A stretch of DNA of 64,000 nucleotides from Scenedesmus sp. PABB004 (GCA_014905635.1 JABVCE010000025.1:434001-498000); one strand, 5' to 3'. Counted from the stretch's first letter, positions 13,845 to 42,594 are shown. The notes: a model not told the origin generated them from the letters alone. Program-made: numbers and translations.

Positions 13845-16229
13845 ATGCGCGCCGCTGGAGGGCCGTGGCTCGCGCCCAGCAGCTCGCGCGCGCCTTCGCC
13901 GTCGCAACGCCAGCCGGGCAGCACCGCCCGAGCAGCAGCAGCCCCCGACGGCGCGGAGCCAGCGCGGCGCGCGCTGCTCTCAGGTGCCGGCCGCCTGGCG
14001 CCGCCGCCGGGCCCTCACTCACCCCACCTGACTCACCCCACACACGCCCCCGGCCGTGCAGGCCTGCTGGGCGGCGCGCTGGCGCTGAGCCCGCCAGCGC
14101 CGTCGTCAGCCGCGGCGCCGCCGGCGCCAGCGACGCCAGCCGCGCCCGGCTGCGCCGCCGCGCCGGGCGGCAGCCGCGGCGCCGCGGCGGCGCGCGACCC
14201 CGCCATCAACAGCGGCTGCGCGACGCCGCCGGGCGTGCGGCGCGAGCGGGAGCTGCGCGGGCTGCTGCCGCCGCGCACGGTGGCACCGCAGGTCGAGGTC
14301 CTGCGCGCGCGCGCCGCGCTCGACGGCTGCTGCAGCGCGCTCGAGAAGCACCGCCTGCTCGTGGCGCTGCGTGAGACGAACGAGGCGGCGTACGTGGCGC
14401 TGCTGCGCTCCGACGTCGAGGGCCTCCTGCCACTGGTCTACACTCCCACCATTGGCGACGCCTGCTTGGCGTGGGGCAGCCTCGTGCCGCGCGCCACGGG
14501 GCTCTACATCACCCCCGCTGACCGCGGCCGCGTGCTCGACGTGCTGCGGCGCTGGCCGAGCGACGAGGTGCGAATAGCTGTCGTCACCGACGGCGAGCGC
14601 ATCCTCGGCCTGGGCGACCTCGGGGCACATGGCATGGGCATCCCGACCGGCAAGGCCGCCGTTTATGCTGCCGCGGGTGCGGCACACGTCGAGCGCCCGC
14701 CGCGCTGAGCGCCCGCCGCGCTGAGCGCCCGCCGCCACGGGCGTCAACCTGTCACGTGCCGCGCCGCGCAGGCGTGGACCCCGCCTGGCTGCTGCCCGTC
14801 ACGGTGGACGTCGGCACGAACAATGCCGTGCTGCGCGCCGACCCGCTGTGAGCGGCGGCGGCGGCGGAGGCAGCTGCGGCGCGGCAGCTGCTGGGGCTCG
14901 CCTCACGCCTCGCCGCGCGGCACGCGCCTCACGCTCCACGCGCCGCGGCGCAGTTACGTCGGCAACCCCGAGCCCCGCCAGCCGTGGGCGAGCACGCGGG
15001 AGCTGATGGAGGAGCTCGTCACCGCGCTGCACGTGCGCTTCCGGCGGCGCGTGCTGGTCCACTGGGAGGACCTGGCCGGCGCCAATGCCTCCGACCTGCT
15101 CGAGGTGCGTGCGCCGCCGCCGCTGCCCCCGCCGCCGCGCGGAGCCTGCGCGCTGTGCACGCGCCGCGCGAGAGCTGCGTGCGCCGCTGAGCCGCTGAGC
15201 CGCTGAGCCGCTGAGCCGCCGGCGCCGCAGCGCGTCGGCGGCGGCGGCCTGGCGCCGACGTTCAACGACGACATCCAGGCCACCGCCGCGGTCGCGCTCG
15301 CGGCGGCGCGCGGCGCGGCGCGCGTCCCCGGCGTGCCCCCGCTCGCGGCGCAGCGCTGGCTGCTGTTTGGCGCCGGCAGCGCTAACCTGGGCATCGCTCA
15401 AACGCTGGTCGCGGCGCTCGGGCAGGAGGGCGTGCCGCCAGCCGCCGCGCGGGCGCGCATCTGGCTCGTCGACAGCCGCGGCCTCGTCCTGCGCGGCCGC
15501 GAGGGCGGCCTCACGCCCGCCAAGGCCGAGTTTGCGCAGGACGCCGACGCGCTGCCCGGCGGCGCCGCGGCGGCGGCCGCGCTCGGCGGCGGCGCCGGCG
15601 GCGGCGCGGGGCGGCGGGCCCTCGCAGCGATCGTGGCGGCGGTGCGGCCGACGGCGCTCGTCGGCGCGGCGGCGGTGGCGGGCGCGTTCGACCGGCCCGT
15701 TGTCGAGGCGCTGTGCGCCGCGGCGGCCGCCGAGGGCGGGCCGGGCGCGCGGCCGCTCGTCATGGCGCTGTCAAACCCCACCAGCCGGGCGGAGGTGACG
15801 TTCGCGGACGCCCTGCGCTGGAGCTGCGGCCGCGCCGTCTACGCCAGCGGGTCGCCCATGGACGCCGCCACGAGCGCGGGCCGCGCGCTCGTGCCGGGGC
15901 AGGCGAACAACGCGCACGTGTTCGCGGGGCTGGGCCTGGGCGCCGTGCGCTGCGGCGCGGAGCGCGTGACCGACGCAATGCTCCTCGCGGCGGCGGCGGC
16001 GGTCGCGGGTGCGCTCGGCGCTGCGCGGCTGGGGCTCTGGCTGCGCTGGCCGGCGTGCTCGGCTGGGCGGCGGCGCGCCGAGCTGACCGCCGTGCTGCTC
16101 GCAGGCGCCGTGACGCCCGAGGAGCTGGCGGCGGAGACCGTGCTGCCGCGCATCGGGCGGCTGCCCGAGGTGACCGCCGCTGTGGCGGCCGCCGTGGAGC
16201 ACGCGGCCGGCGCACCAGCTGCAGCGTGA
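13845..16229 (+). CDS. NAD(P)-dependent malic enzyme
   Basis: Exons ~13845-13983, 14062-14676, 14772-14847, 14954-15104, 15231-16008, 16105-16229. LRGLLPP, LPLVYTPTIG, VTDGERILGLGDLGAHGMGIPTGK, VDVGTNN, WEDL, FNDDIQ, FGAGSA, LVDSRGL, ALSNPTSRAE, GQANN. Confidence 0.92.
15186..15218. repeat. Intronic 8-mer tandem repeat (GCTGAGCC)x~4
   Basis: ccgctgagccgctgagccgctgagccgctgagccgc just upstream of a malic enzyme 3' splice site. Confidence 0.8.
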
Positions 16230-16302
16230 CGCTGGTGGGCAACTGAGCCATTACACGCCACGCGTCTGAACAGCAAGCGGCTGCAGATGCGGCAGGCAGG
16301 GC

Positions 16303-19300
16303 TCAGATGTCGTGCACCCCAAAGGCCAGCTGCTCGAGCGCCGCCAGCGCGGCCTCGCCCTGCACGGGCACATCCAGCGCGAGCGAAGGGTCGGCCATCT
16401 CCATCAGCGCCTGCACCACGGCGTGCACGCTGGGCAGCGGCGCGTCCGCCCAGGCGCCCTGCGGCAGCGCCGCCGCCTCCAGAATCGCCTCCAGCACGGC
16501 CGCCGGCAGCGCGGCCAGCAGCTGCACGCCGCTGCCGCTCCCGCTTCCCCCGCCGTCGCCGGCGCCGTCGCCGCGCCCCGCCGCCGCCAGCAGCAGCAGG
16601 CGCACGGCGCGGCGGAAGGCAGCTGGGAAGCGCGCGTGCGTGGCGTGGCTCCAGCCGCGCACCAGGCGCCACTCGAGCAGCTCCGGCTGCGCGCGGCGCG
16701 GCGCGGGCGGCGGCGCGCAGCGCTCGCTCAGCGGGCGGCGGCGGGGCCCGGCAGCGCGCAGAGAGCGCTGGTGCCGCCGGCAGTGCGCGGCGCCCACCTT
16801 GCATGCCACGAACACGCGCCCCGCCGGCGTCACGGCCAGGCCGTTGACGCGCTGCGGCTCCGCCAGCTCGTCGGCGTAGGCCCCGCCCAGCTGCTCTGCC
16901 AGCTCCGCGGGACCCGCGCCCGGCTCGCCTGGCGGCGCCCCGGCGCCGTCGTCGGCCGCCCCGGCGGCACCGCGCGGCGGCTGCGCCAGCGGCAGCTTGA
17001 CGGCAGAGGCAATGCAGAAGCCCTGCGCGCTCCTGGGCGTCTCCTCGTTGCCGTCGGACGCCTCGGGCGGCGCGCGCTTGAACAGGCTGCGCCGCCCAGG
17101 CGAGCGGGCCGGGGCGGGGCGGGCGCCGGGTCAGGCGCGCCCGCGCGCGCGCACGGCGCCGCCTACCGGCGGCCAGCGCCCCGGCAGCGCGGCCAGCCAC
17201 GCCGCACCTGAGGTCGGCGACGTGCAGCGTGCCCGCCTCTTCGGCAAAGGCCAGCGTGCGGTCCCCCCAGCCGCCGGGGCCGCTGTCGCCGGTGCTGGAG
17301 CGGCTGATCGCCAGGGCCGCGGCCCAGCCCTCCAGCCCGGCAGGGCCCAGCAGCGCGTCGCACGCCGCGCCCGCCCCCACCGCTGCTGCTGACGCGCCCG
17401 CTGCCGCGGCCGCTGCGTCGCCGGCAGCGCCCGCGCCGCCCCCCGCGCCGTGCGCGCCCGCCGGCGCCGCGGGCGCGAACCGCACGGGCAGCACCGCGCG
17501 CTGTGAGAGGGTGAAGCTCGCGAGCGTTGCCCCCGAGGCGACCTCAAACACGGTGACGAGGCACAGCCGGTCGCAGCTCGCCGCGAGCAGGCTGCTGCTG
17601 CTGTTGAACGCCAGGTACTGGCAGCCCAGGCTGCCCTGCTGCTGCCAGCTCGTGTGCCGCGGCGGGAGCGGCTGGCAGAGGTCGAGCAGCGCCCCCGGGT
17701 GGTGCTGGTACCTGCGGCGGTGCGCGCCGACGTGGGCCGCGCGTCGCAGGGCCTGCAGCACGCGCGCCGGCCCGCGCGCGCCGGCCGCGGCGCACACGCC
17801 GCCGCCGCGCACCCCTTGCACGCCGGCAGCAGCGCGATGGCGGCCTGGTCCACGCCGACCGCGAGCCAGCGGCCGTCGGGCGAGGCCTCGGCAATGTTGA
17901 GCGGCAGGAGGAGCTGCGCCGTCGCAGCGAGCGCGGCGTCGTGCGCCGCGACCGCCGCCGCGCCGGCGGCGCCCGGCGGCGCGCCGGGCTCCGCCGCGGC
18001 CGCCGCGAGCGCCTGCGCCGTGCTCGCCGTCTGCGCCACCTGCAGCTGCGCGGCCACGTCGGGGGCGACGCCACTGATGGCGCACGTGGCCAGGCGCGGC
18101 GCGGCGCGCGCCTCGGACGTCTGCAGGCGCGCCGAGGGGTCGCAAGCCGGGCCGTGCCTGCGCACGAGTGGGCCGGGCGCGGCGGTGGGCCGCGGCGCGC
18201 GGGCGGCGTGGGCGGCGGCGCGGCGGCTGCCAGACCCCCCCCCCCCCCACACACACACACACACGCACGCCCAGGGACGGGGCTCACCGCAGCAGCAGCA
18301 CGCGCACAGCGGGCTGCATCGTGGGCACGCACGCCGGCGTGAGCAGGCGCAGCAGCAGCATCGCGTAGCACGCCCGCGCGACGGCGTCGGGCAGGTGCCC
18401 GCCGCTCCAGGCGGTGTCGCGCTGCTGGCGGCGCCACGCCGCCGCCTGGCGCTGCGGGCCCAGCAGGCCGGCGAGCGCGCGCTGGCCCGCCGCCACGCGG
18501 TGCAGCGCCTCCAGCGCCGGCGAGTAGCCTCGCATCGCGGCGACCATGCGCGTCGAGACGCTGGGGTCGCCGCAGAACTGCAGGCGCAGGCCCTGCGCCG
18601 CGCCCCAGGCCTGCATCGCCGCGTCGTCCTGCATGAGCGCCGCCAGGGCGCTCACGCGCACGCGCCAGGCCTGGGCGCCCGAGGCCGGGGGCGGGGGCGC
18701 GCTGAATGTGCTCGTGTCGGCCTCGGCCCAGCGGGCGAGGCCGCTGCTCCGCAGCTCGGTCAACATCACCACCAGCAAGCGCTCGGCCTCATCGATCGCG
18801 CGCCCAACCTCGTCCGCCGGGGCCAGCGGCTCCGGCTGCACGCGGCGCGGCGCCTGCTGCGCCGGCGTGCCCGGCCGCTGCGCCGCCGCGCCCGGCGGCT
18901 GCGCCGCATCAGCCTGCTGCGCGCCCGGCTGCGCTGCGGCGCCCGGCTGCGCCGCCGCGGCCGGCTGCTGCGCGTTCAGCAGCGCTCTGATCTGCTCGCA
19001 GAAGCGCCGGTTGAGCTGCGAACCCAGCGGCTCCCAGCTCGGCAGGCCCTGCACCATGAGCTCCGCCGCCGCGGCCGCCGCGGCCGCCGCGCCACCCGCC
19101 GCGCCGCTGGCCCCGCCACCGCTGCCGCCTGCTGCTGCTGCTGCTTTCGCCGGCTGCGCCTGCTGCGCGCTGCTGCTGCTGCTGCCGCTGCTGCTGCTGG
19201 GGAGGTTGAACAGATAAAGCCGGCCGTCCTGCGAGTGGCGCCGGGCGGCGTCGGCGGCCGCGCGCCAGCAGCAGCGACGGCGGCGCCGCCCCCCCCCCCC

Positions 19301-28687: not shown

Positions 28688-31600
28688 TCACCCGCACTTG
28701 GCAAAGCCGCGCCGCGCCGTGGCGGGCGTGGTCTTGCCGGCGGGGCACTTGCGGCAGGCAGCCGCGCCGCGCCGGTTGGAAAAGCGCCCGCCGTTGCAGG
28801 GCTCGGGGTCGGCCGTCGCGCCGCCCTTCTTCGCGTCGGCGCCCTTGCAGGCAAAGCCCTTGGGGCAGGCCTCGCACTGCGCGGTCGCCCGGTCCACGTA
28901 CTCGCCGGCCTTGCACGGCCCCACGCACTTGCCCGCGCAGCCGTCGCACTGGTCAGGGACGCACGTGGCGTTGTTGGGGCAGCGCATGGCCGAGCAAAAG
29001 TCGGCGTTCTTGGGGCAGCCCTTGCGCTTGAGGCCGTTGGCGCAGGGCGCCTTGGGCACGCAGGTCGCGGTGCACGCGCCGCAGTAGCTGCGCGGCGGGC
29101 GGCAGGGACGGGCGGCAGGGGCGGGCGGGGGCGGGCGGGCGGTGGCGGGTCAGGGGCGGCCCTGGGCGCCTCGGCTCGCTGCCGCCGCGTGCGGCGGCCG
29201 CGCGCGCGTTCCGGCGCGCGGCGGCGCAGCCGCGGCGCTGCGCTGCGCGCCGCCGCTCACTCTACGACGCATCGGCTGCTCTTGCCGCACTTGGCCGCGC
29301 GGCAGGGGTTCTTCTTGCCCTTGCACGTGGCAGGCCGCACGGCCTTGCCCCGCGCGCAGCCGCGGTTGGCGACCGCCTCGGGCCGGCCGCCACCGGCCTT
29401 GCCGTCGGCCATGCCGCCCCAGCCGACGGGCGCACCCGGCACCGGCATCGGGTAGGGCCCGCCGTTGTAGCGCCAGTTCGGCGCGCAGTACGCCTCGCAC
29501 GCCCCGTCGCACGAGCCGGCGCGGCACGCCGTGCCGTCGGGGCAGAGCCGGCCGTCGGCGGTGGCGGCGTCGCAGAGCTTGGCCTGGTCGCACTCGACAG
29601 ACGCGTTCTCGCCGGGGCACAGCGGGTTGACCGGCGCGGGCAGCTCCGGCGGCAGCTCCGTGCACAGCGCGGTGCACGTACCGCCGCACGCGAGGTCCGT
29701 GCACGTGGCGCCGTCGCCGCACAGGCCGGGGTCGGCCGCGGCGCAGGGCGAGGCGGTGGCCGAGCCGTCGGTGGTGGCCGAGCCGTCCTGGGCGCAGGGC
29801 TGCGGCGCCGTGCCGTCGGGGCACGTCGGCAGCTTTGCCGGCGGCCGCATGACCGGCGCGCCGGTGAACGACCACCACCACACCGGCCCGCGGTGCACGC
29901 ACTGCACGGCGCATGTGCCGTTGCAGTCCGCCACGGCGCAGCGCTGCTCCTCGGTGCAGGCCAGGCCGGCTGCGGCGCACGCGGCCGCGTCGTCGCCGAC
30001 GCCCGCGAGGGTGCAGGCCTTGGCCACGAAGCCGCCGTCGTTGTGGCACACGCTGGGGGGCGGGACGTATCCTGTGTCCACCACGCAGCGCTGCTTGCAC
30101 TCGCCGTCGCACTCCCATGTTCCGCAGAACTCGCCCTCCGCGCACGAGGCACAGACGTCGGGCGCGCTGTCCTTGCCGCCCGGCTCGCCGCTCGCGCCCG
30201 GCGGCGCAACGCCGGAGCCAGCCGAGCCGTCGCCGCTCGCGTCGGAGCCGTCGTCGAGCGCGCACGAGTGCGCGGTCGTGTTGGGCGCCTTGGCGTCGCC
30301 CGGCAGGCACTGCGGGCGCGTGCGGGGCGGGCGCGTCAGGCGCGTCAAGCGGCGGCGCGCGAGCACACGCGTACGCGAGCGCGACCGCCCAGCTGTGTGG
30401 GCGGCGCTGCGGCGGCTACACCCACCAGGATGGGTCTGTACCAGGGGTTTACGACGCAGCGCACTGAGCACTGCCCGTCCTTGGCGCAGGCGAGCTCGGC
30501 GCAGACCTCGTTGTCCTTGCAGGTGCTGCAGACGTCCCAGTCGGAGCTGGGGCGGTTCCAGACGCTGCAGAACCACGCCGTCGCGCCGCCCTCGGTGCAC
30601 GAGTAGGGGCTCTCGGACGGCTCCGGCGGGAGCCACCACGGGTCCGTCACGCACGTAGGCCCGCACGCGCCGCCGCCGCAGCGAGCATAGATGCAAAAGG
30701 TGCCTGGCGTGGTGCACGCCGACTGGTCGCACGCCCACGTGCCGTCGTCGGGGCCGTCGCAAAACTCGGCGACCTCGCCGCTGCCGGCGCAGGTCTGGGG
30801 CTTGTAGTCGGGGTCTGCCGCGCAGAAGACGCTGCACGTCTCGGCGTCGCCGGTGCCGCACGCCCACGCGCCGCACGCGGTGCCCGCGGCGCAACGCATG
30901 GTCTTGCAGCTGCCCTTGCCCGCGCCGGCGGCCTTGCAGGCCCGCACGCGCGTCACGCCGTCGGGGCAGACGTAGGGCAGCGGGGCGTCCGGTGCGATCG
31001 GGTCAACCGGGTCGACGCCTATGGGGTCTGGGGGCTGCCACCAGGGGTTGGTCACGCACGTGGGCGCGCAGCCCGCGCCGCAGTCCATGGGCGCGCAGAA
31101 GGCGTTGGGCGCGTCGCAGCCCGCGCCACACGCCGACGGGTCAAAGCCGGCGTCGCTCGGGCTGCCGCACTTTTTGGCGATCGTCGTGTTGTCAGGGCAG
31201 ATGTAGCCCGCGATTGGCGGCGGCGACGGCGTCGCGTCGGCGGGCACGCAGCGCGCCTGGCAGCCGGCGTCGCCTGCGTCCGCGGCCGCCGTGGCGCAGA
31301 GGTACTCCCGGCAGACGTGGCCGGGCTTGCAGTCCACCTGCGGCGGCCGCGGCACGCCTGCGGTCGGGGCCCGGGAGCGCCAGGGCGCCCGCGCGACCGG
31401 CGCTGCTGCAGCAGCGGCGCTGCGGGCCACGCCTGCACGCCGCAGCTCACCAGCTCGCACCGCCGCCCGGGCGGCTCGCTGCTCAGGGCGTCGCAGGTCG
31501 TCGCCAGCGCGCCGTCGGAGCACGTGTAGAGCGGGGACTGCAGCGCTTGACTCGTGGAGTCGTCCACGCAAACGGCCTCGCAGCTGCGGGCGCGCGCGGG

Positions 31601-31950
31601 CGGGCGGGCGCGGGGCGTCGGCGGCAGCAGCGCGACTTCCTCGCCGCCGGGTGCCGCCGCCGCCGGGCGCCGCAGCGCCGCTGCAGCGTGTCGTGCGGCC
31701 TCGCCGGATCGGACTGGGCCTGCCGAGCGTGCGGGCGCGGACACGGGCCCTGCCGCCGCGCCGCGCCGCGGGCGCACCCGCAGTCGATGCACCGCTGCCC
31801 GTCGCCGCTGCAGGGCGCCGGCGTCGCCTTGCAGGGCGGCACGCTGCACTCGGGGGTGGGGCCGGTCCAGGGCGTGCACTCGCGGGCGGCCTGGGCGAGC
31901 ACGGCGCTCGCCGCGATGCAGACCGCGAGGACCAATCGGGCCGCCGCCAT
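28688..31950 (-). CDS. Secreted cysteine-rich repeat protein with C-terminal GCC2/GCC3 (ephrin-receptor-like) Cys repeat
   Basis: Exons ~31950-31778, 31583-31451, 31337-30426, 30310-29261, 29087-28688. Signal peptide MAAARLVLAVCIAASAVLAQA; ~10-12 Cys-rich modules; C-terminal CKAGEY....CEACPKG and CNGGRFSNRRGAAACRKCPAG. Confidence 0.8.
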
Positions 31951-32155
31951 GGCGCCCGCTCACGAGCGACGCAGGGGGCCCGGTGGACGCGCTGGCGCGG
32001 GCCGGGCGGCGCAGGGCGGTGGTCGGCGAGAGGGGCGCGCAGAGGTCGTATTCTGCTGCCGGGGATCGCAGGCTGCAGGTTCGGGGAGTCTCCGCTACAC
32101 GCACACTGGCGACGCCGACGGCCGGACGGGGCTTCAGGCCGTCGCCGCCGCGCCG

Positions 32156-33023
32156 CGCCGGCAGTGACGACGCCGGAACCCACGCCGCCGCGGGCGGGCC
32201 GTCGGGCTGCGCGCCCGATCAGCGGCGTGGGGACCTCCCGCAGTCCCTCAGGGCGTCGCGTGCGCGCAGCGGCCGTCACCGGCGCCGCCGCCGCGCTGCT
32301 TGCGCAGGCGCCTGCCCGCGCGCGCGCGCCACGTGCGCCGCGGGTTGAGAGGGCGCGGCAGGCCGCCCTGGGCGCCCCTGCACCCTTCACCGTGCTGCCG
32401 GTGTTCCGCAGCCCCCTCGGCCCGCCCGGCGTTTGACTGGGCGCAGGCGCCCACGCGCACGGCCGCGCCGGGGCCGCCGTGCCGGCGCGCTCGCGGCGGG
32501 CCAGAGCGCCTCGGGCCGCCAGCGCTGCGCAGCATCATGCTGCGGCACGCTCGCTGTCCAGCTCCGGCGACAGCGCAGGGCAGCTCCGCGCCAGCGCTCC
32601 GCTCACGGCGCGCGCCGGCGGCGGCGGGCGCGCACCGATGCCGCCGTCGCGCGCCGTGCGCCGCAGAGGCGGCAGACGCCCGCTGCGAGCGTGTTGGCGC
32701 GAGGGCTTTGCGCCCCGCCGCCCGCTCGGCGGCCTGCCCGCCCGCTCGGCGCTGCGGAGTGCCCAGATCGGCGCGCGCGCACAGGAGCCGTCCCCGATCA
32801 GCCAGGCGGGCGCTCGCGAGCCAGCCGGCCCGCGCACTCCATCGGCGCGGTCAAACATCGCCGCGCGCCCCCGGATGCCCCGCGGAGCGTCTGCGGCCCG
32901 CCGACGCGTCGCCCGGCACCGCCCGCACCCGCTCGGCCGGCACGCGGCGCGCCCCCGCCCCGCGCGACGCGCCGGGGCCGTCGGGCAAGGTGTCGCCCCG
33001 CACGCGCGCCATGCCGGCCAGCA
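32156..33023 (+). repeat. Left arm of ~870-bp inverted duplication (copy of MYB upstream region + first 4 codons)
   Basis: Reverse complement of 36450-37319. I counted ~6 substitutions and one 2-bp indel. The identical 107-aa ORFs at 32535-32858(-) and 36615-36938(+) confirm it. Confidence 0.97.
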
Positions 33024-34294
33024 ACGGGGGTGCGCCGGTCAGCGTGCGGCGGCGGGAGCGCCGCCGTGGCGCCGCGGCGAACCTGTTACATCTGCGCCGC
33101 GGGGCATCGTCGTCGTCGGGGGCATGTCACATGATGTGGGTCGTCCGCGCGCGTGCTGTTCACAGACCAAGTACAGGGGGGGTCGTCGTCGGGCCAAGTT
33201 CTGGTCCTGCGTCGGGTCACCATATCATCATCGCCGTCGTGCACGCCGCCGCCGCTGGGGGCACACAGGGAACAGGGGGAGAGACAGCTGCGGGCGCGCC
33301 GATCGTGGCGCGCCAAACTCCTGGACACGTGTGGGCCCTCCTCCGCGTGCAGCGCGTATGTGCAGGCTGCCTGCAACAGTCAACACACCACACCACAGCG
33401 GAGCCGGCGGGGCGCCCGCGCGCCCCGCCGCGCTGTGCAAGGCACAGGCACATCGCGGGCGCGCCGCCCGGCGGGCGCCTGCTGCTGCCGGGCCGGGGGC
33501 TGCGCGCCCGGGTCAGCTGCGGTCATAGGCAAGCATGCTCGTGCACGCGCGTCAACACCGACAGCCCAGGCCCCGCCCGCGCCGCGCCTTGCACGCAGGC
33601 GCAGCACGCAGGGGGGAAAGCGAGGGAGAGAACGGAGAGAAAGCGAGAGGCGCGTGCTCGCCCAGCGGCGCGCGTGGCAATCGTCCGGCCGCGCCGCGCG
33701 TGGGGCAGTCCGAGCTGCCGCGCCCTCCCGGCCCTGGCCCCGCCGACTGTCCGGTCAGCCGCCCGCCTCCAAGCTGCTGCCGCGCGCCCCGGGCGCGTCG
33801 GCCCCACGGGGCGCGCGGTCAGGCTCCTAGGAGCTACGGCGGCACCTGCAATCACGTCAGGTTGGGCGTGGCGGGCGCGCGCGTGCGCATGGATGGCGCA
33901 GCAGCAGGAGAGCGGGCCGCCGCGCCGCCAGTCAGGGGGTCTGTCGTGCGTGCCTACAGCAGAGAATAAGAAGCAGCAGCAAACCATGCACGCGCCGAGG
34001 GTCGTGCCCCGCGCTGCCGGCGGCAGGCGGGCGCGCGCTGGTAGGGAGCGCCGCGCCCGCCGCCACCGCCAGGCAGCCAGGGCGCTCGCGCCGCGCCGCG
34101 CCGCACCCGCCGCGGAGTTTAGGAAAGGGACCGTTCAAGGACGGAAGTGCACGCACAAGCACAAGCCTCGCTCAGCACCCACACGCAACGCCGCGCGGTG
34201 CCTGCGCGGCCAGGGCCCTGCCGCCCCGACCCCTCCCCGAGCACACGCATGCCCCCCCCCCCCCCCCCCACCGGGCGCCACGCCCACGCTGCGC

Positions 34295-36462
34295 CTAGCA
34301 CTCGCAGCCCGCCGCGGCGGCCGGCTGCTGCACGTTCGTGAGGAACAGCCGCGCCGCCTCCATCAGGCACTCGCGCTGCCGGCCCGGCAGCGCGTGCAGC
34401 ATGGTCAGGCTGGGCGTGTCGGGCTCCCGCAGCAGGTCCCCGATCTGCCACGTCTGCCCGCAGGGGCTGCACAGCGTGAAGCCGCCGCCGCCGCCCAGCT
34501 GGTCGGCGCCCTGCGACGCGCGCGGGCGGCCGGGAGCGGCGCACCGGGGTCGGCGCGGCAGGCGCCCGCCGCAGCGCGCGGGCCGCCAGCGCCGCGAGCC
34601 TGCGCTGCTGCCCGACGGCCCGCCGCGCGCGCGCACCTCGGGCAGCACGCTCCACATGCCGAGCTCGCCCGCCGGCAGCGACGCCGGCAGCGCGGGCAGC
34701 ATGTCGCTGCCCGGCAGGCGCGGGCTGATGCCACACGCGATCGCCTGGTTCACGTCGACCACGAGCTGCGGCGGCTGCGAGCTCAGCGAGTTGCTGCGAA
34801 CGCGCTTCAGGCTGCGCCCGCTGTCGCCGCAGTCCTCCGCGCTCGGCTGCGCGGCGCGCTTGGCGCCCTGCGCGCGCGCGCGGGGGCGGGGGCGGGGGGA
34901 GCGGCAGCGTGAGCAGGGGCGGCGCGGCGCGGGGCGCCCCCGGCCCGCCGGGCGCCCGCCGCCCCCCGCGCGCGTGTGGCACCTTGGGGACCATCGGGCT
35001 CTCCGACTGCAGCGCCGAGTCGCTGGAGCTGCTGCCCGCCTTGGCGGCGGGCGCCGTCGCGGCGCCAAGCTCCTCGCTGCTGCCCCAGATGAGCTGCGTC
35101 GACTCGTGCAGCTCCTCGCCTCCGCCGCTGAGGTCGTGCAGCAGGTGCTGGAAGTCGTCGTGCGGGTCCTCCTGCGCGCAGATCGGGCCCAGCGCGTCGC
35201 CGCCCTTGCCGCCCGCGACGTCGTCCGCGCCGTCGTCCGAGCCGTCGCTCGCGGAGGGGCTGTCGGCGTCGCCGGCGGGCGCGGCGCCGCCGTCGCTGCG
35301 GCGGTCGTCGTCGCCGGCCACGTCCTCGGAGCCGCTGTCGCACGGCCCGGGCGCGTCGTCCTCCTGCTTGAACTCCGTGAGCAGCCGCTCCAGCGAGATG
35401 TTCTTGGACAGGAACTTGCTGCGCGGGGCGGCGCGCGCGGCGCGCGCGTGTGAGCAGCCAGCCCCGCCCACGCCGCGCGCCGGCACCCCCAGCGGCCGGC
35501 GCCGCGCGCGTCGCGCAGCGCGCGCGCAAGCTCACTTGGCGCGCATGCCCGCGGTGCCGGCCTTGCGCTTGAGCGTCGAGTTCCAGCGGTTCTTGACCGC
35601 GTTGTCGGTGCGGCCCGGCAGCAGCTTGGCGATCACTGCGGCGCGGCGGCGCGCGGCGGTCAGAAGACTGGCGACACGGACGACGCCGAGCTGCCGCACG
35701 CGCTGTCCCCCCCCCCCTTCCCCCGGCCGCAGGAGCGGCGCCGCCCTCACCCGACCACTTGTTGCCGTTGAAGTCGTGCGCCTGGCAGCGGCGGCGCGGC
35801 GTGTGGCGTCGGCGCGGCGCTCGCCCTGGCGCGCCGCGGGGTGCTGCCGGGGCGACCACCGGCCGCCCGGCCCGCCGCGAGCGCGCCGCGCGCGGGCCCG
35901 CCTCCGGCGCGCTCAAACGAGCTGCCGCTCGCCGTGCGGGCCCGCGCCGCGCCCGGGGCGCACCTTGATGATCACGGCGTCCTCCCAGTCACTGAACGTG
36001 CCCTTCTTGACCTCGGGATTGAGGTGGTTCCACCACCTGCGCGCGGGCGCGGCATGCCGGGCGCGTCGGGCGCCCGCCCCGCGCCGCACGCCGCCGCCCG
36101 GTCCTGCGCGCCGCCCCGGGCCCCACCTGAGGCGGCAGCTCTTGCCGGAGCGGCCCTGCGGCGCCAGGCGGGGCGGGGTGAGGCGGGGGCGGGGCAAGAG
36201 CTGCGCTCCGGCAGCCCCCGCGCGCGTGCGCGGCCGCACCTTGATCTTCTCCGCCACGACGCTCCACTTCTGGGCGCCGTTCATCATGACCAGGCGCCGC
36301 AGCTGCTCATCCTGCGCGGCGCGCGGCGCCGGGCGGGGCCTCGGCATGCGGGCCCGCCCCCCGCGCCCGCCCGGCCCCGCGGCGCGCCGCCTGCCCAGCC
36401 CCCACCTCCTCGGGCGTCCAGGCGCCCTTTTTGAGGAAGGGCTCCTCGCTGCTGGCCGGCAT
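34295..36462 (-). CDS. R2R3-MYB transcription factor, 9 exons
   Basis: Spliced: [112 protein letters not shown], followed by an acidic low-complexity C-terminus. Confidence 0.95.
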
Positions 36463-37319
36463 GGCGCGCGTGCGGGGCGACACCTTGCCCGACGGCCCCG
36501 GCGCGTCGCGCGGGGCGGGGGCGCGCCGCGCGCCGGCCGAGCGGGTGCGGGCGGCGCCGGGCGACGCGTCGGCGGGCCGCAGACGCTCCGCGGGGCAGCC
36601 GGGGGCGCGCGGCGATGTTTGACCGCGCCGATGGAGTGCGCGGGCCGGCTGGCTCGCGAGCGCCCGCCTGGCTGATCGGGGACGGCTCCTGTGCGCGCGC
36701 GCCGATCTGGGCACTCCGCAGCGCCGAGCGGGCGGGCAGGCCGCCGAGCGGGCGGCGGGGCGCAAAGCCCTCGCGCCAACACGCTCGCAGCGGGCGTCTG
36801 CCGCCTCTGCGGCGCACGGCGCGCGACGGCGGCATCGGTGCGCGCCCGCCGCCGCCGGCGCGCGCCGTGAGCGGAGCGCTGGCGCGGAGCTGCCCTGCGC
36901 TGTCGCCGGAGCTGGACAGCGAGCGTGCCGCAGCATGATGCTGCGCAGCGCTGGCGGCCCGAGGCGCTCCGGCCCGCCGCGAGCGCGCCGGCACGGCGGC
37001 CCCGGCGCGGCCGTGCGCGTGGGCGCCTGCGCCCAGTCAAACGCCGGGCGGGCCGAGGGGGCTGCGGCACACCGGCAGCACGGTGAAGGGTGCAGGGGCG
37101 CCCAGGGCGGCCTGCCGCGCCCTCTCAACCCGCGGCGCACGTGGCGCGCGCGCGCGGGCAGGCGCCTGCGCAAGCAGCGCGGCGGCGGCGCCGGTGACGG
37201 CCGCTGCGCGCGCACGCGACGCCCTGAGGGACTGCGGGAGGTCCCCACGCCGCTGATCGGGCGCGCAGCCCGACGGCCCGCCCGCGGCGGCGTGGGTTCC
37301 GGCGGCGTCACTGCCGGCG
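36450..37319 (-). repeat. Right arm of inverted duplication = native MYB upstream/5' region
   Basis: Contains the MYB ATG (36462) and ~857 bp upstream; matches 32156-33023 in reverse complement. Confidence 0.97.
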
Positions 37320-37477
37320 AAAGGATTGCAGACCGCCGCGCGCTCCGGCGACCGATGACGAGCGCAGGGGGCGGCCCCGCGACAGCAGCAACCAACCAAG
37401 GTGCAATGCGAACGGCGGCAAAAAATTGGTCGCACGGCGGCGGCACACGCGCGCGCGCGAGTCGCAGGCCCCCCCGA

Positions 37478-40400
37478 TCAGGCCCCGCGCTCGCCGCCGC
37501 CGCCGCCGCCGCGCGCGCGCAGCTCGTGCAGCTCGGCCGCGCGCGCCACGCGCGGCGGCGGCCGGTACCGCCGCAGCAGCAGCGACGACAGCACGACGCT
37601 GACGCTGCTGAAGACCATGCACCCGCCCGCAACCCAGGGCGGCATCTGCACGTGGAAGCGCGGGTACGCGAGCCCCGCGGCGAGGGGGATCATGACCACG
37701 TTGTAGCCCATCGCCCACACAAAGTTCCACTGGATGCGGCGGAAGGTGCGGCGCGAGAGGTCGAGCCCGACCAGCACGCCCTCGAGGTCGTCGCGCATGA
37801 GCACATAGTCGGCCGCCTCGACCGCGATGTCGGTGCCGCTGCCGAGCGCAACGCCGACGTCGGCCGCCGCGAGCGCGGGCGAGTCGTTGACGCCGTCGCC
37901 GACCATCGCGACGACGCGGCCGGCGCGCTGCAGCTCGCCCACGACGCCCGCCTTGCCCGCGGGCAGCACCTCGGCCGACACGTGCGCGGGCGGGATGCAC
38001 AGCTGCTTCGCGATCGCGCGCGCGGTGCGCCAGTTGTCGCCGGTCAGCAGGTGGCACTGCACGCCCGCCGCCTGCAGCGCGCCGACCACGCCCGCGGCCT
38101 CGGGCTTGAGCGGGTCGGCCACCGCCAGCGCCGCCACGGCCGCGCCGTTGATGCCGAGCAGCACCACCGTCTGGCCCAGCGCCTCGCGGCGCTGCATGTA
38201 CTCCTCCACGCCACCCGTCAGCGCGACGCCCTGCTCCTGCATCAGCAGACGGTTGCCCAGCGCGACGCGCAGCCCCGGCGCGGCGGTGCCCTGCTGCTGC
38301 TGCTGCAGCTGCGCCACGCGGCCGTGCTCGGCCGCCGCCTTGCCCGGCGCGCCGCCGGCGGCGCCGCCCGCGGCGACGGCGAGCGAGGCCTCCGGCAGCA
38401 GCACGGTCACGCCCTTGCCGGGGTGGTTCTGCGCGGGCGGGCGGGCGGGCGGGCGGGCGGGCGGGCGGGCGGGCGGCGGGCGGGCGGGCGGGCGGGCGGG
38501 CGGGCGGACCGCTGGCGTCGGCGGCGCGCCGACGGCGGGCCAGCCGCCGCGCGCGGCTGGCGGCCGGCGCCGCGCGCCGCCTGCCCCGGGCCCCGGCCCC
38601 GCGCGGCGCGCACCTCCACGTCCGGCACCTTGAGCACGCCGCGGCTCAGCATGCCGCGCAGCCGCCGCGGCGTGCCGGCGGGCGAGGCCGGCTCCACGGC
38701 GAGGCCCTCCATGCTGCGCCGCCGCGCGAGCGCGCGCGGGCTGCCGCTGGCCCAGCACGCCGCGTCCTCGACGCCGCTGCCGCTGCTGCCGGTGCGCGCG
38801 ACCGCGCGCAGCTGCGCGCCCCGCCGCCGCTCCGCCGCCTCGGCCTCGGCAAACGCCTGCCCCAGCGCCGGCGCGCCGCCCCGGCCGCCGCTGCTGCCGG
38901 GGTCGTCTTCGAGGCTGAACGCGGCCACAAACGGCTCGGCCGCGCCTTCCGCCGCGCTGGGCGGCCGGCTGAGCACGCCCTGCGCGTACTCCAGCACCGC
39001 GCGCGCGAGCGGGTGCTCGCTCGCCGCCTCGGCCGCCGCGGCGAGCGCGCAGACCTGGCGCAGCGTGTAGCCCGGGCGCAGCAGCACCGCGTCCGTCACG
39101 CTCGGCCGCCCCAGCGTGAGCGTGCCGGTCTTGTCAAACACGACCGTGTTGACGTGGTGCGCGCGCTCCAGCGCGTCGCCGCCTGCGGCGGGGCCGGCGC
39201 GGCGACAGGCGGCGTCGGCGGCGTCCGGAGGCGGCGACGCCGCGGCGGCGCTGCCCACGCGCGGGGCAGGGCGGGGCGGGGCGGGGCGGGCCGCCTGGAA
39301 AGGAGGGGGGGGGGGGGCGGCACGGCACACGCGCCCTTGATGAGGATGCCCAGCTGCGCGCCGACGCCGGTGCCGACCATGACGGCGGTCGGCGTGGCCA
39401 GCCCCAGCGCGCAGGGGCAGGCAATGACGAGCACGCTGATGCCAAAGAGCAGCGCAAACAGAAAGTGCGTGTGCCCCAGCGGCAGCCACGAGTCCGGGAA
39501 CGCGCCCGCGCTGCCGGCGACAAACCTGGCGGCGGCGGCGCGGCGCGCGAGGCGGCGGGCGTGGCGTGGGCATGGGCGCGCGTCGTTGGGCGGCGCGCGG
39601 CGCCGCCGGGCGCGGCCCCGCGCGGGCGCGCGCGCACCAGCCGGCCCAGGTGAGCAGCGCGAGCGCGACCACGACCGGCACAAAGATGCTGGCCACGTGG
39701 TCGGCGTACGCCTGGATGGGCGCCTTGCTCATCTGCGCGCGCTGCACCAGGCGCACGATCTGGGCCAGCACCGTGTCGGCGCCCACGCGCGTCGCCTGCG
39801 CGCCGGCGGCGATGGCGGGGGTGAGCGGCGCCGCGGCCGCGTCGTCCGGGCCGCGGCGCGCGGGCCGCGGCGCCGCGCGGTGCGGCGCGGGGCGCGCGGC
39901 GCCGCGCCTGCATGATCAGAGCGTTGCCGGTGTTGATGGTGCCGCCGATGAGCGCGTCGCCCTCGCGCCGCAGCACGGGCTCGCTCTCGCCGCTGATCAT
40001 GCTCTCGTTGACGTAGCTGCTCCCCGCGACGAGCACGCCGTCGGCGGGGATGCGCCCGCCCGGCAGCACCTGCGCGGTCGGCGGCGGGTGCGGCGCGGGC
40101 GCTCGGCCGCCGCGGGCTGCCGGCGGGGGGCGCGCTGCTGCGTGCGGCGCGCGCGCGGCGCTGACGCCAGGCGCCCGCGCGGCGGGCCCCCGCGCGCCTT
40201 GAGGTGGTCGCCCTGGTGAATGAGCGCGCTGGCCACGAGCTCCTCGTCCGCCACGGCGCCGGCGGCGTCGAGCGTGACGAGCGTGGCGGTGTCGGGCGCG
40301 AGCGCGAGCAGGGCCTGGATCGCCGCGCTCGTCTTGCCCTTGGCCGCGCACTCCAGGTACTTGCCCAGGATGACCACGCTGATGAGCATCGCGCACGTCT

Positions 40401-42295
40401 CAAAAAAGTCCTGGCACGCGGCGGCGCGCGCGGCGGCGCGTCGTGGGGCGGCGCGTCGCAGGACGGCGCGCGCGAGGCGGCGCAGCGCAGGGCGGCGCGC
40501 GCCGCGCGGCGCAGCGCAGCGCAGCGCAGCGCAGCGCAGGGCTCGCCGCGGGCCGCGCGCGCCGCGCCGCACGCCAACGCACCGTGGGCGTGTAGTGCAT
40601 CGCGTCGTGGCGCACGAAGCGGTGGTGCAGGATTGAGATGAGGCTGTAGGCGTAGCTCGCGCCCGTGCCCAGCACGACGAGCACATCCATGTTGGCCACG
40701 CCGCGGCGCAGCGCCTTGAACGCGGCCCGGTGGAAGCGCCAGCCGATCCAAAACTGCACCGGCGTCGCGAGCGCCCACTTGAGCAGCTCGTCGGCGCGGA
40801 AGCCAAACACCGGCGCCGACAGCACCGCCTCGGTGCCTGGCGCGCGCGGCCGGCGCGGCCGCGGCGGGACGGCGGTCGGCGGGTGGCGCGGCGGCGGCGC
40901 TAGGCGGGGGCGGGGCCGGGGTGCAGCCGCGCGCGCGCGCGGCGCCGCCGCCGCCGCGCACCCGGCAGCATGGGCAGGACCATGGCGATGATGAACACGG
41001 GCAGCGTGAACACGAGCGCGAGCGTGAGCAGGTGGCGCCACTCGTCGAGCTCCGCGCTGTGGTCGGCCCCGCGGCCCTCGTCGGCGCCGCCGAGCAGGCG
41101 CGCCTCAAAGCCCGCGCCGTCGACCGCCGCGAGCAGCGCGCGCGGCCCCGTCGCGCCGGGCTGGAACCACACCTCGGCGCGCCCCCCGACCGCGCACACG
41201 GCCGCCGACGACACGCCGGGCAGCGCCGTCAGCGCGGCCTCGACCGCGGCCGCGCACGCGGCGCACGTCATGCCCCGCACGCCCAGCGCGGCGCGCTCGA
41301 GCCCCGCGTTGCTCAGCAGGCGCGCATCAAAGCCCAGGTCCTCCACCGCCGCGAGCAGCGCGGCCGGCGTGGTGGCCGTGGGGCAGTACGTCACCTCCGC
41401 CTCGCCGCCCGTCAGCGACACCGCCGAGCGGCTCACGCCCGGCAGCGCCGCGAGGCCGCGCTCGACCGCGCCGGAGCACGCGGCGCAGGTCATGCCGCCC
41501 ACCGCGATGCGCGCGACCTGCAAGCGCGGCGCGCCGGGCGGCGCGCGGGCGGGCGGGCGGCCCGTCAGCGCCGCGGGCGGCCGCACGCTCGGGGGCACCA
41601 CGCCGCCGCCGCCGCCGCCGCTGGCGCCGCCGCCACATGCCGCCCCAGTCGCCCGCGCGCGGCGCACCTGCGGGCGCGCCGCGGACGCGTCGCCGTCGTC
41701 GAGCTCGTGCACCGAGAGCAGCTTGCAGTCAAAGCCCGCGCCGTCCACCGCGGCGACGAGGTCGTCGCTGCACGCGACGCCGCCGTCGTACGTCACCTCC
41801 GCCGAGTGCTGCAGCAGCGCCACCGACGCCAGGCTCACGCCCGGCACCGCCCTGCGCGCGCGCGTGCGCAGGGAGGCGGCAGCGCGGCGGGCGCGGTCGG
41901 CCAGCGCCGCGCGCGGCGGCGGCGAATGCGCGGCGCGCACGCGTGCTGTTGCGGTGTGACCAGCACCCAACCCCCCCCCCCTCCCGCACCTCAGCGCCGC
42001 CTCCACGGCGGAGGAGCAAGCGGAGCAGGTCATGCCCTTGACCGACAGCTGCGGCGGTGCGGCCGGCGCGGCGTGGGCGCGTGCGCGCGGCGGGGCGTGC
42101 GCGCGGCGGGCGCCCGCTGCTGCCGCGCCCGCCGCGCCCGCCGCCGGCGCCGCGCCGCCGCACCAGCGCGACGCTGTGCAGCGAGTGGGCCTTCGACGGC
42201 GCGACGGCCGCCATCTCCGTGTCCGCCACGCGCTCGTAGGGCGTCGCGGGGCCCCGCCCCAGCCCCAGCGCCTGCCGCAGCCTCCCCAGCGCCAT
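37478..42295 (-). CDS. Copper-transporting P1B-1 type ATPase (HMA5/RAN1/ATP7-like)
   Basis: About 11 exons. Three HMA domains (GMTCSAC, GMTCAAC x2), [60 protein letters not shown]...MVFSS Cu-type TM motifs. Confidence 0.96.
38433..38506. repeat. Intronic (GGGC)n microsatellite
   Basis: Long gcgggcgggcggg... run directly upstream of an ATPase acceptor; it reads (CCCG)n in the transcript. Confidence 0.85.
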
Positions 42296-42594
42296 GGCGC
42301 CCCGCTGCGCCTCCCAGCGCGCTGGCTAGTTTTGCCACATCCTCCACGCGCCTCGCCGAGGCTGTTGGTGCGCTACGCGCGGGCCCGCTGCTGCTTGCTG
42401 CCCAAGAACGCGAGCGGGCCACGGCGCACGCGGGCGGAGCTGGGATCGAGGGCAACGAGCTCTGCGAGTCTCCGGAGGCGAGCTGGGCGCTGGAACTCGG
42501 CAGCTCGGTCCCTCGCGCGCGCGGTTCTCGAGCGTAGCTGGTCGCGTTCTCGTGCTCGTCAGGCGCTGCGTCACACTGGTGGCAGAGCTGCTGC

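What the first reader, a model, noticed from the sequence alone, without database searches (positions are those of the whole stretch)
32156..37319. MYB gene bracketed by a ~870-bp inverted duplication of its own promoter/5' end
Seen: 32156-33023 is the reverse complement of 36450-37319 (~6 substitutions plus a 2-bp indel). The match stops exactly after ATGCCGGCCAGCA (MYB codons 1-4). A minus-strand TGTAA at 33086-33090 suggests the MYB transcript ends just inside the left arm, so the whole unit lies between the arms. Inference, four possible readings: (a) the footprint of a recent staggered-break inversion that flipped the MYB gene and left the original promoter beside the Cys-rich gene; (b) a recombinationally invertible cassette, where crossover between the arms would flip the MYB body from one promoter copy to the other and keep it intact either way; (c) a foldback/Pack-MULE-like element, although I see no TSD or transposase; (d) an assembly artefact, made less likely by the scattered differences between arms.
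Basis: partly seen in the sequence, partly recalled or inferred. Interest (0 to 1): 0.85.

Follow-up and report, generated by a model that had tools for sequence, protein, structure and literature searches.

The report
Inverted promoter copy flanking MYB gene
A MYB transcription-factor gene in a very GC-rich green alga sits between two mirror-image, 99%-identical copies of its own upstream region, which looks like the scar of a recent small rearrangement of a known kind and not a new genetic device.

Summary
Window 32156-33023 is the reverse complement of 36450-37319, with 6 substitutions and one 2-bp indel. It is the only long repeat in the 64-kb window.

The arms bracket a clean 9-exon, 414-codon R2R3-MYB gene on the minus strand. 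The repeat ends 13 nt into its coding sequence. Both neighbours are also on the minus strand: a copper P-type ATPase upstream and a secreted Cys-rich protein gene downstream. The arms show no coding signal, no RNA-family match, no target-site duplication and no transposase.

All six substitutions put A/T in the left arm and G/C in the right arm. This suggests the left copy is the one that is decaying.

Best reading: a real, recent, unprogrammed rearrangement scar. An inversion of the MYB gene with one staggered break (about 45%) fits the break positions best. An inverted duplicative insertion with no inversion (about 30%) is not excluded.

I could not test orientation, copy number in the genome or synteny. 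No genome is held, the one run that holds the stretch gave only short contigs, and no syntenic relative was found. An assembly artefact (about 8%) is therefore not excluded.

This is a new member of a known kind, of modest interest.

The parts
32156..33023 (+). Left arm: an inverted copy of the MYB upstream region plus the first 13 nt of the MYB coding sequence (ATG copy at 33011). It points rightwards into the 3' end of MYB. Its outer end lies 205 nt upstream of the ATG of the Cys-rich gene.
   Evidence: No coding-like periodicity. No Rfam match. It carries the A/T allele at all 6 substitutions.
36450..37319 (-). Right arm: the upstream region attached to the working MYB gene (promoter and 5'UTR inferred) plus codons 1-4 and one further base. 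It fills almost the whole gap between the Cu-ATPase 3' end and the MYB ATG.
   Evidence: No coding-like periodicity except a weak signal in the last ~150 nt before the ATG.
34295..36462 (-). R2R3-MYB coding region: 9 exons, 414 codons plus stop. Exons are 36462-36406, 36311-36240, 36155-36127, 36036-35964, 35781-35751, 35635-35536, 35418-34983, 34867-34637 and 34510-34295.
   Evidence: My own gene model; all 8 introns are GT..AG and the frame is open. Pfam Myb_DNA-binding matches the frame that holds exon 2 (E=1.1e-6). Strong GC3 periodicity in the exons.
33024..34294 (-). Non-coding stretch between the MYB stop codon and the left arm, presumed to be the MYB 3'UTR. It holds a TGTAA at 33090-33086.
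   Evidence: No coding periodicity. No residual inverted copy of the MYB body: best hit 38.3 bits, against 33.7-53.6 bits in 20 controls. TGTAA.
37478..42298 (-). Upstream neighbour: a copper-transporting P1B-type ATPase gene. Its stop codon TGA is at 37480-37478. A TGCAA at 37330-37326 lies 6 nt outside the right arm.
   Evidence: Pfam HMA, E1-E2_ATPase and Hydrolase on minus-strand frames. Sequence, translation, relatives.
28691..31950 (-). Downstream neighbour: a secreted Cys-rich repeat protein gene. Its ATG is at 31950-31948 and is followed by a stretch that looks like a signal peptide (my reading of the sequence; no predictor was run).
   Evidence: Sequence. Pfam Ephrin_rec_like on 28691-29149, minus strand. 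Minus-strand coding segments.

Best explanation
This is a real, recent and unprogrammed rearrangement scar. One event copied about 870 bp, namely the MYB upstream region plus the first 13 nt of its coding sequence, in inverted orientation to the other end of the MYB gene.

The most likely single mechanism is a small inversion, of about 4.3 kb and one gene, with a staggered break at one breakpoint. In this scenario MYB once pointed away from the Cys-rich gene and shared the intergenic region with it. Two offset cuts fell at 32155/32156 and 33023/33024. A third cut fell in the narrow gap between the convergent 3' ends of MYB and the Cu-ATPase gene. Fill-in and end-joining then flipped MYB and left a copy of the staggered stretch at both ends.

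MYB kept a full upstream region (the right arm). The left arm stayed beside the Cys-rich gene and is now decaying where it no longer serves MYB.

Shown here: the repeat, its sharp ends, the gene models, and the absence of coding, transposon and RNA-family signals. Inferred: the inversion itself, its direction, and that the arm is a promoter.
For: (1) The repeat is 868/870 nt at 99% identity with sharp ends. The flanks outside the arms are unrelated (best 38.3 bits, background level). The repeat is unique in the window.

(2) The arms abut an intact 9-exon MYB gene exactly. The gene would stay intact in either orientation.

(3) All three break positions lie where a viable inversion must have them. 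One is 205 nt upstream of the Cys-rich ATG. One is 13 nt into the MYB coding sequence, where the duplication rescues the gene. One lies 62 nt past the MYB TGTAA and 6 nt past a TGCAA on the Cu-ATPase sense strand, 158 nt after that gene's stop. If the copy had simply been inserted, its outer donor boundary would fall at the end of the Cu-ATPase gene only by coincidence.

(4) All 5 TGTAA in the window lie downstream of a coding-like segment on the same strand. The one at 33090-33086 is therefore a credible end signal for MYB.

(5) There is no target-site duplication for k=2-12, no transposase, no coding periodicity in the arms, and no Rfam or tRNA hit.

(6) The left arm has A/T and the right arm G/C at 6 of 6 substitutions. 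If A/T is the derived state, the two-sided binomial p is 0.03 (my own arithmetic). This fits a constrained working copy on the right and a relaxed copy on the left.

(7) The size fits the known kind. Ranz et al. 2007 (PMC1885836; abstract and passages read) report inverted duplications of 46 bp to about 1.9 kb at 17 of 29 Drosophila inversions. [quoted passage not shown]

(8) The window has no N, and the arm differences are substitutions, not homopolymer indels. That speaks for two true copies.
Against: No outgroup shows the ancestral orientation. Relatives with synteny were sought and not found, so the inversion is inferred from anatomy alone.

An inverted duplicative insertion gives the same final structure. 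The tandem ancestral order it implies is also plausible: the Vac14-to-Cu-ATPase coding gap is only about 430 bp, so short tandem intergenic regions do occur here.

TGTAA is not enriched overall: 5 seen against about 6.4 expected from base composition (frequencies, my arithmetic). TGCAA is common (35 in the window). The gene-end arguments are therefore soft.

The 6:0 asymmetry rests on six sites and on an assumed direction of mutation.

No read or contig spans an arm, and the number of copies in the rest of the genome is unknown.
Confidence: 0.45

Rival explanations
1. Inverted duplicative insertion without inversion. The present tandem order (Cu-ATPase, MYB, Cys-rich, all on the minus strand) is ancestral. 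A replication template switch or break repair copied the 870 bp upstream of MYB codon 5. The copy was inserted in reverse between the MYB 3' end and the Cys-rich gene, at 32155|33024.
For: It yields the same final structure. MYB now lies in a run of minus-strand coding segments from about 16.3 to 46.3 kb. The implied ancestral gap from the MYB stop to the Cys-rich ATG, about 1.47 kb, is ordinary for this window. The decaying left arm (6 of 6 A/T alleles) is what a functionless new copy would show.
Against: The donor's outer boundary would coincide with the end of the Cu-ATPase gene only by chance: it lies 6 nt past a TGCAA and 158 nt past the stop. It would also put an 868-bp insertion only 205 nt upstream of the Cys-rich ATG, which risks that gene's promoter. 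Apart from four scattered matching bases in the six positions beyond the inner ends, I saw no microhomology at the junctions.
Confidence: 0.3
2. Assembly artefact. Only one copy of the 870-bp stretch exists, and the second was created by a misjoin, for example of divergent haplotypes or chimeric reads.
For: No independent read or contig bridges either arm. The one run that holds part of the stretch gave contigs of 166-338 nt among the 8 pieces shown. At 79% G+C the region is hard to sequence.
Against: The structure is not a simple palindrome. It has a 3.4-kb unique spacer, sharp ends at biologically sensible places, and intact genes on all sides. The arm differences are substitutions plus one dinucleotide slip. 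The window is gap-free. That long reads would span such a repeat is my inference; the sequencing platform is not known.
Confidence: 0.08
3. Two-step origin. The whole MYB gene was first duplicated tail-to-tail, and almost all of the left copy, from codon 5 onward, was later deleted.
For: Palindromic gene duplicates are common (my own knowledge). The left arm keeps the promoter and the start codon.
Against: No remnant of a second MYB body lies in 33024-34294: the best hit is 38.3 bits, within the control range of 33.7-53.6. It needs two events, and at 99% arm identity there has been little time for both.
Confidence: 0.05
4. Mobile element. A foldback or Pack-MULE-like transposon has 870-bp terminal inverted repeats and has captured the MYB gene.
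For: Long terminal inverted repeats around host sequence resemble such elements superficially.
Against: There is no target-site duplication for k=2-12. No transposase or other coding signal lies inside apart from the MYB gene. The window holds no other copy. The arms consist of the gene's own upstream region and start codon, and they end inside the coding sequence.
Confidence: 0.04
5. The structure has a function. This could add to any origin above. Either the left promoter copy drives a co-regulated antisense transcript, or read-through RNA forms a long hairpin that dampens MYB, or recombination between the arms flips MYB between two neighbourhoods as a population-level switch.
For: Anatomy only. 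The left copy faces the MYB 3' end with the same upstream sequence. The arms are long and similar enough for homologous recombination. MYB stays intact in both orientations.
Against: The left arm carries all six A/T alleles, as if unconstrained. A likely end signal lies 62 nt before the arm, which would limit read-through. No recombinase was found among the 66 frames sent to Pfam, of 170 listed. No RNA data are at hand.
Confidence: 0.08

Closest known systems
Inversions flanked by inverted duplications of breakpoint sequence (staggered-break model; Ranz et al. 2007, PMC1885836; abstract and passages read)
   Same: Two inverted copies of sequence that was unique before sit exactly at the ends of the segment. 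The size is within the reported range of 46 bp to 1.9 kb. Only one breakpoint is duplicated, as in 12 of the inversions with duplications in that paper. One copy is decaying. No transposon is involved.
   Different: The segment here is one gene of about 4.3 kb, not a multi-gene chromosomal inversion. The duplicated stretch is a gene's upstream region and start codon. The inversion itself has not been shown by an outgroup. The organism is a green alga, not Drosophila.
Inverted segmental duplications that mediate recurrent inversion by non-allelic homologous recombination, such as the human Xq28 emerin/filamin repeats (recalled, not looked up here)
   Same: Highly similar inverted arms bracket intact genes, so that a crossover flips the segment without breaking anything.
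   Different: The arms here are much shorter (0.87 kb against about 11 kb). No polymorphism in orientation has been shown.
Programmed invertible promoter switches of bacteria, such as fimS and hin (recalled)
   Same: A segment lies between inverted repeats, and its orientation would change what lies next to what.
   Different: Those have repeats of tens of bp, a dedicated site-specific recombinase, and an on/off outcome. Here the arms are 870 bp, no recombinase was found, and the gene keeps a promoter copy in both orientations, so there is no on/off logic.
Pack-MULE and foldback transposons (recalled)
   Same: Long inverted termini lie around host-derived sequence.
   Different: There is no target-site duplication, no other copy in the window, and no element-specific termini. 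The interior is a complete working gene, not a captured fragment.
Inverted-duplication origin of small-RNA loci (search listing only: PMC3237417 and bioRxiv 10.1101/682591; not read)
   Same: An inverted copy of part of a gene lies close to that gene and could give double-stranded RNA.
   Different: Those hairpins have short spacers and lie in one transcript. Here the spacer is the whole gene and no small-RNA data exist.

Membership tests
Inversion with inverted breakpoint duplication (staggered breaks) | Two inverted copies of otherwise unique, non-repetitive sequence | tested here: met
   Only two copies in the 64-kb window. The rest of the genome could not be searched.
Inversion with inverted breakpoint duplication (staggered breaks) | The enclosed segment is inverted relative to an outgroup or ancestor | not testable with these tools
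   No genome is held. The metagenome scans gave no syntenic relative.
Inversion with inverted breakpoint duplication (staggered breaks) | Sharp repeat ends, with no similarity beyond them and no transposon hallmarks | tested here: met
   (flanks at background level, no target-site duplication). (no transposase, no coding signal in the arms).
Inversion with inverted breakpoint duplication (staggered breaks) | Duplication size within the described range | tested here: met
   868/870 bp here, against 46 bp to about 1.9 kb in PMC1885836.
Foldback / Pack-MULE-type transposon | Target-site duplication flanking the terminal inverted repeats | tested here: not met
   No direct repeat for k=2-12 at 32155 / 37320.
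Foldback / Pack-MULE-type transposon | Several copies in the genome, or a transposase | tested here: inconclusive
   No other copy in the window and no transposase domain among the 66 frames scanned. A genome-wide count is not possible.
Programmed invertible DNA switch | A site-specific recombinase gene nearby and short recombinase sites | tested here: not met
   No recombinase family among the 66 frames of 26.8-43.8 kb sent to Pfam, of 170 listed for 24-46 kb. The arms are 870 bp.
Programmed invertible DNA switch | Both orientations present in a population of cells | not testable with these tools
   The single run gave contigs of 166-338 nt among those shown; none spans an arm.
R2R3-MYB transcription factor (the enclosed gene) | Two adjacent Myb repeats with regularly spaced tryptophans near the N-terminus | tested here: met
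   The spliced model shows the R2 and R3 repeats. Pfam Myb_DNA-binding and Myb_DNA-bind_6 match the frame that holds exon 2. The full-length spliced protein could not be sent to Pfam.

The most novel reading that the evidence does not exclude
The inverted copy is not a dead scar. It still works as a promoter that responds to the same inputs as MYB and fires into the gene's 3' end. Every activation of MYB would then also launch a convergent antisense or hairpin-forming RNA that limits it. This would be a self-limiting circuit made in one step by duplicating a gene's own promoter. In addition, recombination between the arms could flip MYB between a divergent pairing with the Cys-rich gene and a tandem position behind the Cu-ATPase gene.
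Probability: 0.07. Interest if true: 0.65.

Novelty: new member of a known kind. Interest (0 to 1): 0.3.

Why it matters
If the inversion reading is right, this is a very clean and young example of a rearrangement that cuts through a regulatory region yet survives, because the staggered break leaves a copy of that region on both sides. It involves a single gene, the scar is 99% intact, and the host is a green alga with no close sequenced relative. Such cases help to date and count micro-inversions, which comparative maps usually miss. The locus also offers a natural test of whether a duplicated promoter that faces its own gene has regulatory consequences. In itself it is an ordinary kind of scar.

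Tried and rejected
Whole genome: none is held, so I could not count copies of the arm genome-wide.

Sequencing runs: one freshwater metagenome (X1) holds 0.11 of the sampled words, and no RNA holder is listed. Laying X1 gave 105 laid contigs. The 8 pieces shown are 166-338 nt long and 97-100% alike. None bridges an arm or a junction. The joints listed have sides of 20-28 letters and look like cross-matches from other organisms or repeats. This gives no evidence on structure, orientation or expression.

Relatives:
- MYB exon 9 as query in metagenome contigs: 599 pattern matches, none a relative.
- Last exon of the Cu-ATPase gene as query: 80 loci kept. Of these, 79 have a best segment at 39-51% identity and look bacterial. 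One (L079) is a eukaryote-like contig at 70% identity and 51% G+C. It shows no credible MYB match (best tblastn E=3.2) and no other shared gene.

Rfam at E up to 1 on 31000-38500: 0 matches. tRNA scan: 1 gene, far from the locus.

The bacterial promoter/terminator scan of the left arm found nothing and is not suited to a eukaryote.

An upstream in-frame ATG would add about 158 residues to MYB. I rejected it because the translation is low-complexity Arg/Ala/Pro and lacks clear periodicity.

The earlier-findings index has nothing on this genome or on this arm sequence.

Literature search for green-algal nuclear micro-inversions with inverted repeats: the 12 papers listed, of 28 matching, are on organelle genomes, an assembly and other topics. 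Going by titles and abstract starts, none describes such a case.

A homology search with the full spliced MYB protein was not run (see steps_to_tell), so MYB orthologues were not examined.
Full report
OBSERVATION

The inverted repeat is real and lies at the stated coordinates. The repeat finder on 30000-40000 gives two adjoining inverted pairs, 32257-33029 / 36444-37216 (773 nt, 99%) and 32156-32267 / 37208-37319 (112 nt, 99%). They are one repeat, split by a 2-bp indel.

The alignment and a position-by-position script give six substitutions: left 32170, 32405, 32503, 32875, 32918 and 32942. There is also one GC-dinucleotide slip, at left 32261 | right 37213-37212.

Identity stops after ATGCCGGCCAGCA, at 33023 / 36450. 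Beyond both ends the sequences are unrelated.

The next-longest inverted pair in those 10 kb has 50-nt arms at 72%. blastn of the arm against the whole window finds only the two copies; everything else scores 61 bits or less. Window-wide megablast shows no other long repeat except a short tandem at 58953-59152. The repeat is far beyond chance.

WHAT LIES THERE

The window is 78.8% G+C with no N.

I built a gene model between the arms on the minus strand. It has nine exons, from 36462 down to 34295, all eight introns are GT..AG, and the frame is open for 414 codons. The N-terminus shows the two Myb repeats of an R2R3-MYB. Pfam matches Myb_DNA-binding on the frame that holds exon 2.

Third-position G+C is 0.93-1.0 in the exons. 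That periodicity is absent from both arms and from 33024-34294. The arms and the 1.27 kb behind the stop codon therefore look non-coding. Rfam found nothing in 31000-38500, and the only tRNA is at 14069-14158.

Both neighbours are on the same (minus) strand as MYB.
- Upstream is a copper P-type ATPase, with Pfam HMA, E1-E2_ATPase and Hydrolase hits. Its stop codon is at 37480-37478, 158 nt from the outer end of the right arm. A TGCAA at 37330-37326 lies 6 nt from that end.
- Downstream is a Cys-rich repeat protein gene. Its ATG at 31950 is followed by a stretch that looks like a signal peptide (my reading, no predictor run). It has a Pfam Ephrin_rec_like hit further on. The ATG lies 205 nt from the outer end of the left arm.

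Read on the minus strand, the order is: Cu-ATPase, right arm (almost the entire intergenic region plus 13 nt of MYB coding sequence), MYB, a TGTAA at 33090-33086, 62 nt, the left arm in reverse, 205 nt, the Cys-rich gene.

TGTAA occurs only five times in the window. That is no more than base composition predicts (about 6.4; my arithmetic from the frequencies). All five, however, lie downstream of a coding-like segment on the same strand.

WHAT IT IS NOT

- It is not a recognisable transposon. There is no target-site duplication for k=2-12, nothing but the MYB gene inside, and no further copy in the window.
- It is not the remnant of a palindromic whole-gene duplication. The stretch 33024-34294 shows no inverted similarity to the MYB body above background: best 38.3 bits, against 33.7-53.6 in 20 control segments.
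- Nothing suggests a programmed switch. Pfam found no recombinase among the 66 frames I sent, out of 170 frames listed for 24-46 kb. The arms are 870 bp long, not short recombinase sites. And because each arm carries the upstream region and the start codon, MYB is intact in both orientations, so flipping has no on/off logic.

HOW IT MOST LIKELY AROSE

Two one-step histories give exactly this structure.

(H1) A small inversion with one staggered break. MYB formerly diverged from the Cys-rich gene. Offset cuts at 32155/6 and 33023/4, plus a cut between the convergent ends of MYB and the Cu-ATPase gene, were filled in and rejoined. MYB was flipped and the staggered stretch was left at both ends. 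This is the model of Ranz et al. 2007 (PMC1885836; abstract and passages read). [quoted passage not shown]

(H2) The present tandem order is ancestral, and an inverted copy of the upstream region was inserted behind MYB by template switching or break repair.

I favour H1 moderately (0.45 against 0.30) because of where the breaks lie. Under H1 the second breakpoint must fall in the narrow gap between two convergent gene ends. It does: it lies 62 nt past the MYB TGTAA and 6 nt past a TGCAA on the Cu-ATPase sense strand. Under H2 that same point is merely the edge of the copied piece, and it would sit at a gene end only by coincidence.

The argument is soft. TGCAA is common (35 in the window), and no transcript ends are known. 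H2's implied ancestral spacing is unremarkable, since the Vac14-to-Cu-ATPase coding gap is only about 430 bp.

A NEW DETAIL

At all six substitutions the left arm has A or T and the right arm has G or C. In a genome this G+C-rich, new mutations are expected to be mostly G/C to A/T (general knowledge; the polarity was not tested here). The pattern then suggests that all six changes happened in the left arm (6:0, two-sided binomial p = 0.03, my arithmetic). The copy attached to MYB would be constrained, and the other would be drifting. Three of the six lie within 69-136 nt of the orphan ATG copy.

The arms differ at 0.7% of sites, so the event is recent, unless gene conversion has kept the arms alike.

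WHAT COULD NOT BE TESTED

- No genome is held.
- The single public run that holds part of the stretch is a freshwater metagenome with 0.11 of the sampled words. Its contigs are 166-338 nt among the 8 pieces shown, of 105 laid. They match at 97-100% but bridge no arm. They show that the organism or a close relative occurs there, and nothing about this structure.
- Two scans of metagenome contigs gave no syntenic relative.
- The Cu-ATPase exon has its best named relatives in Chlamydomonadales at 65-67% identity and in Coccomyxa at 62-64%, and one unnamed relative at 83%. No close sequenced relative was visible, and none of the 120 listed names is from Selenastraceae.
- The full spliced MYB protein could not be submitted to the search tools, so MYB orthologues were not examined.

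An assembly artefact therefore remains possible (about 8%). Against it stand the unique 3.4-kb spacer, the sensible break positions, the intact genes on every side, and arm differences that are substitutions.

COMPARISON AND VERDICT

Earlier notes of this scan (unchecked AI notes, used only as leads) list similar structures in two red-algal loci and in several bacteria and phages, where gene-flanking inverted copies were read as inversion scars. This agrees with the view that the kind is recurrent and known.

The finding is a new member of a known kind: a young, very clean rearrangement scar that duplicated a gene's upstream region and start codon.

The boldest reading not excluded is that the orphan promoter copy still fires into the 3' end of MYB and gives a co-regulated antisense or hairpin RNA, or that the arms let the gene flip between two neighbourhoods. 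I put this at about 7%. The decaying left arm speaks against it.

Noticed in passing
window 1-64000: The window is 78.8% G+C (A 0.108, T 0.104), and exon third positions are 93-100% G+C. The most similar named Cu-ATPase relatives reach only 62-67% identity (Chlamydomonadales, Coccomyxa), and one unnamed relative reaches 83%. This appears to be a green-algal lineage without a close sequenced relative.
   Followed up: partly
window 3666(+), 16251(-), 33086(-), 47973(+), 58580(+): TGTAA occurs only 5 times on both strands, no more than composition predicts. All 5 nevertheless lie downstream of a coding-like segment on the same strand. Some genes here probably use it as an end signal and most use something else.
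   Followed up: partly
window ~16300-46300: A run of about 30 kb holds coding-like segments almost only on the minus strand. It includes the Cys-rich, MYB, Cu-ATPase and Vac14-like genes.
   Followed up: no
window 16211-16324: A plus-strand and a minus-strand coding segment end only about 110 bp apart, so these convergent genes may overlap in their 3' ends.
   Followed up: no
window 34251-34269 and 39300-39318: There are long homopolymer runs: a run of about 18-19 G on the minus strand just after the MYB stop codon, and a G run inside the Cu-ATPase gene region.
   Followed up: no
window 38434-38526: A (CGGG)n-type microsatellite of about 90 bp lies within the Cu-ATPase gene region, probably in an intron (families D1 and D2).
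   Followed up: no
window 58953-59152: A short tandem duplication: about 140 nt at 82% identity, offset by 68 nt.
   Followed up: no
window 14069-14158 (-): tRNA-Ser (GCT), 90 nt. It is the only tRNA in the window.
   Followed up: no
window 33011 onward (+): The orphan ATG copy in the left arm opens a frame that stays open for at least 200 codons, the length I translated, through the antisense of the MYB 3'UTR. It has no coding periodicity, so it is most likely just an effect of the high G+C content.
   Followed up: partly
L079:312-1081: A metagenome contig of 8.3 kb and 51% G+C carries a split Cu-ATPase match at 70% identity that looks interrupted by an intron. It is probably another alga. 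Beyond that gene it shares nothing with this window.
   Followed up: partly
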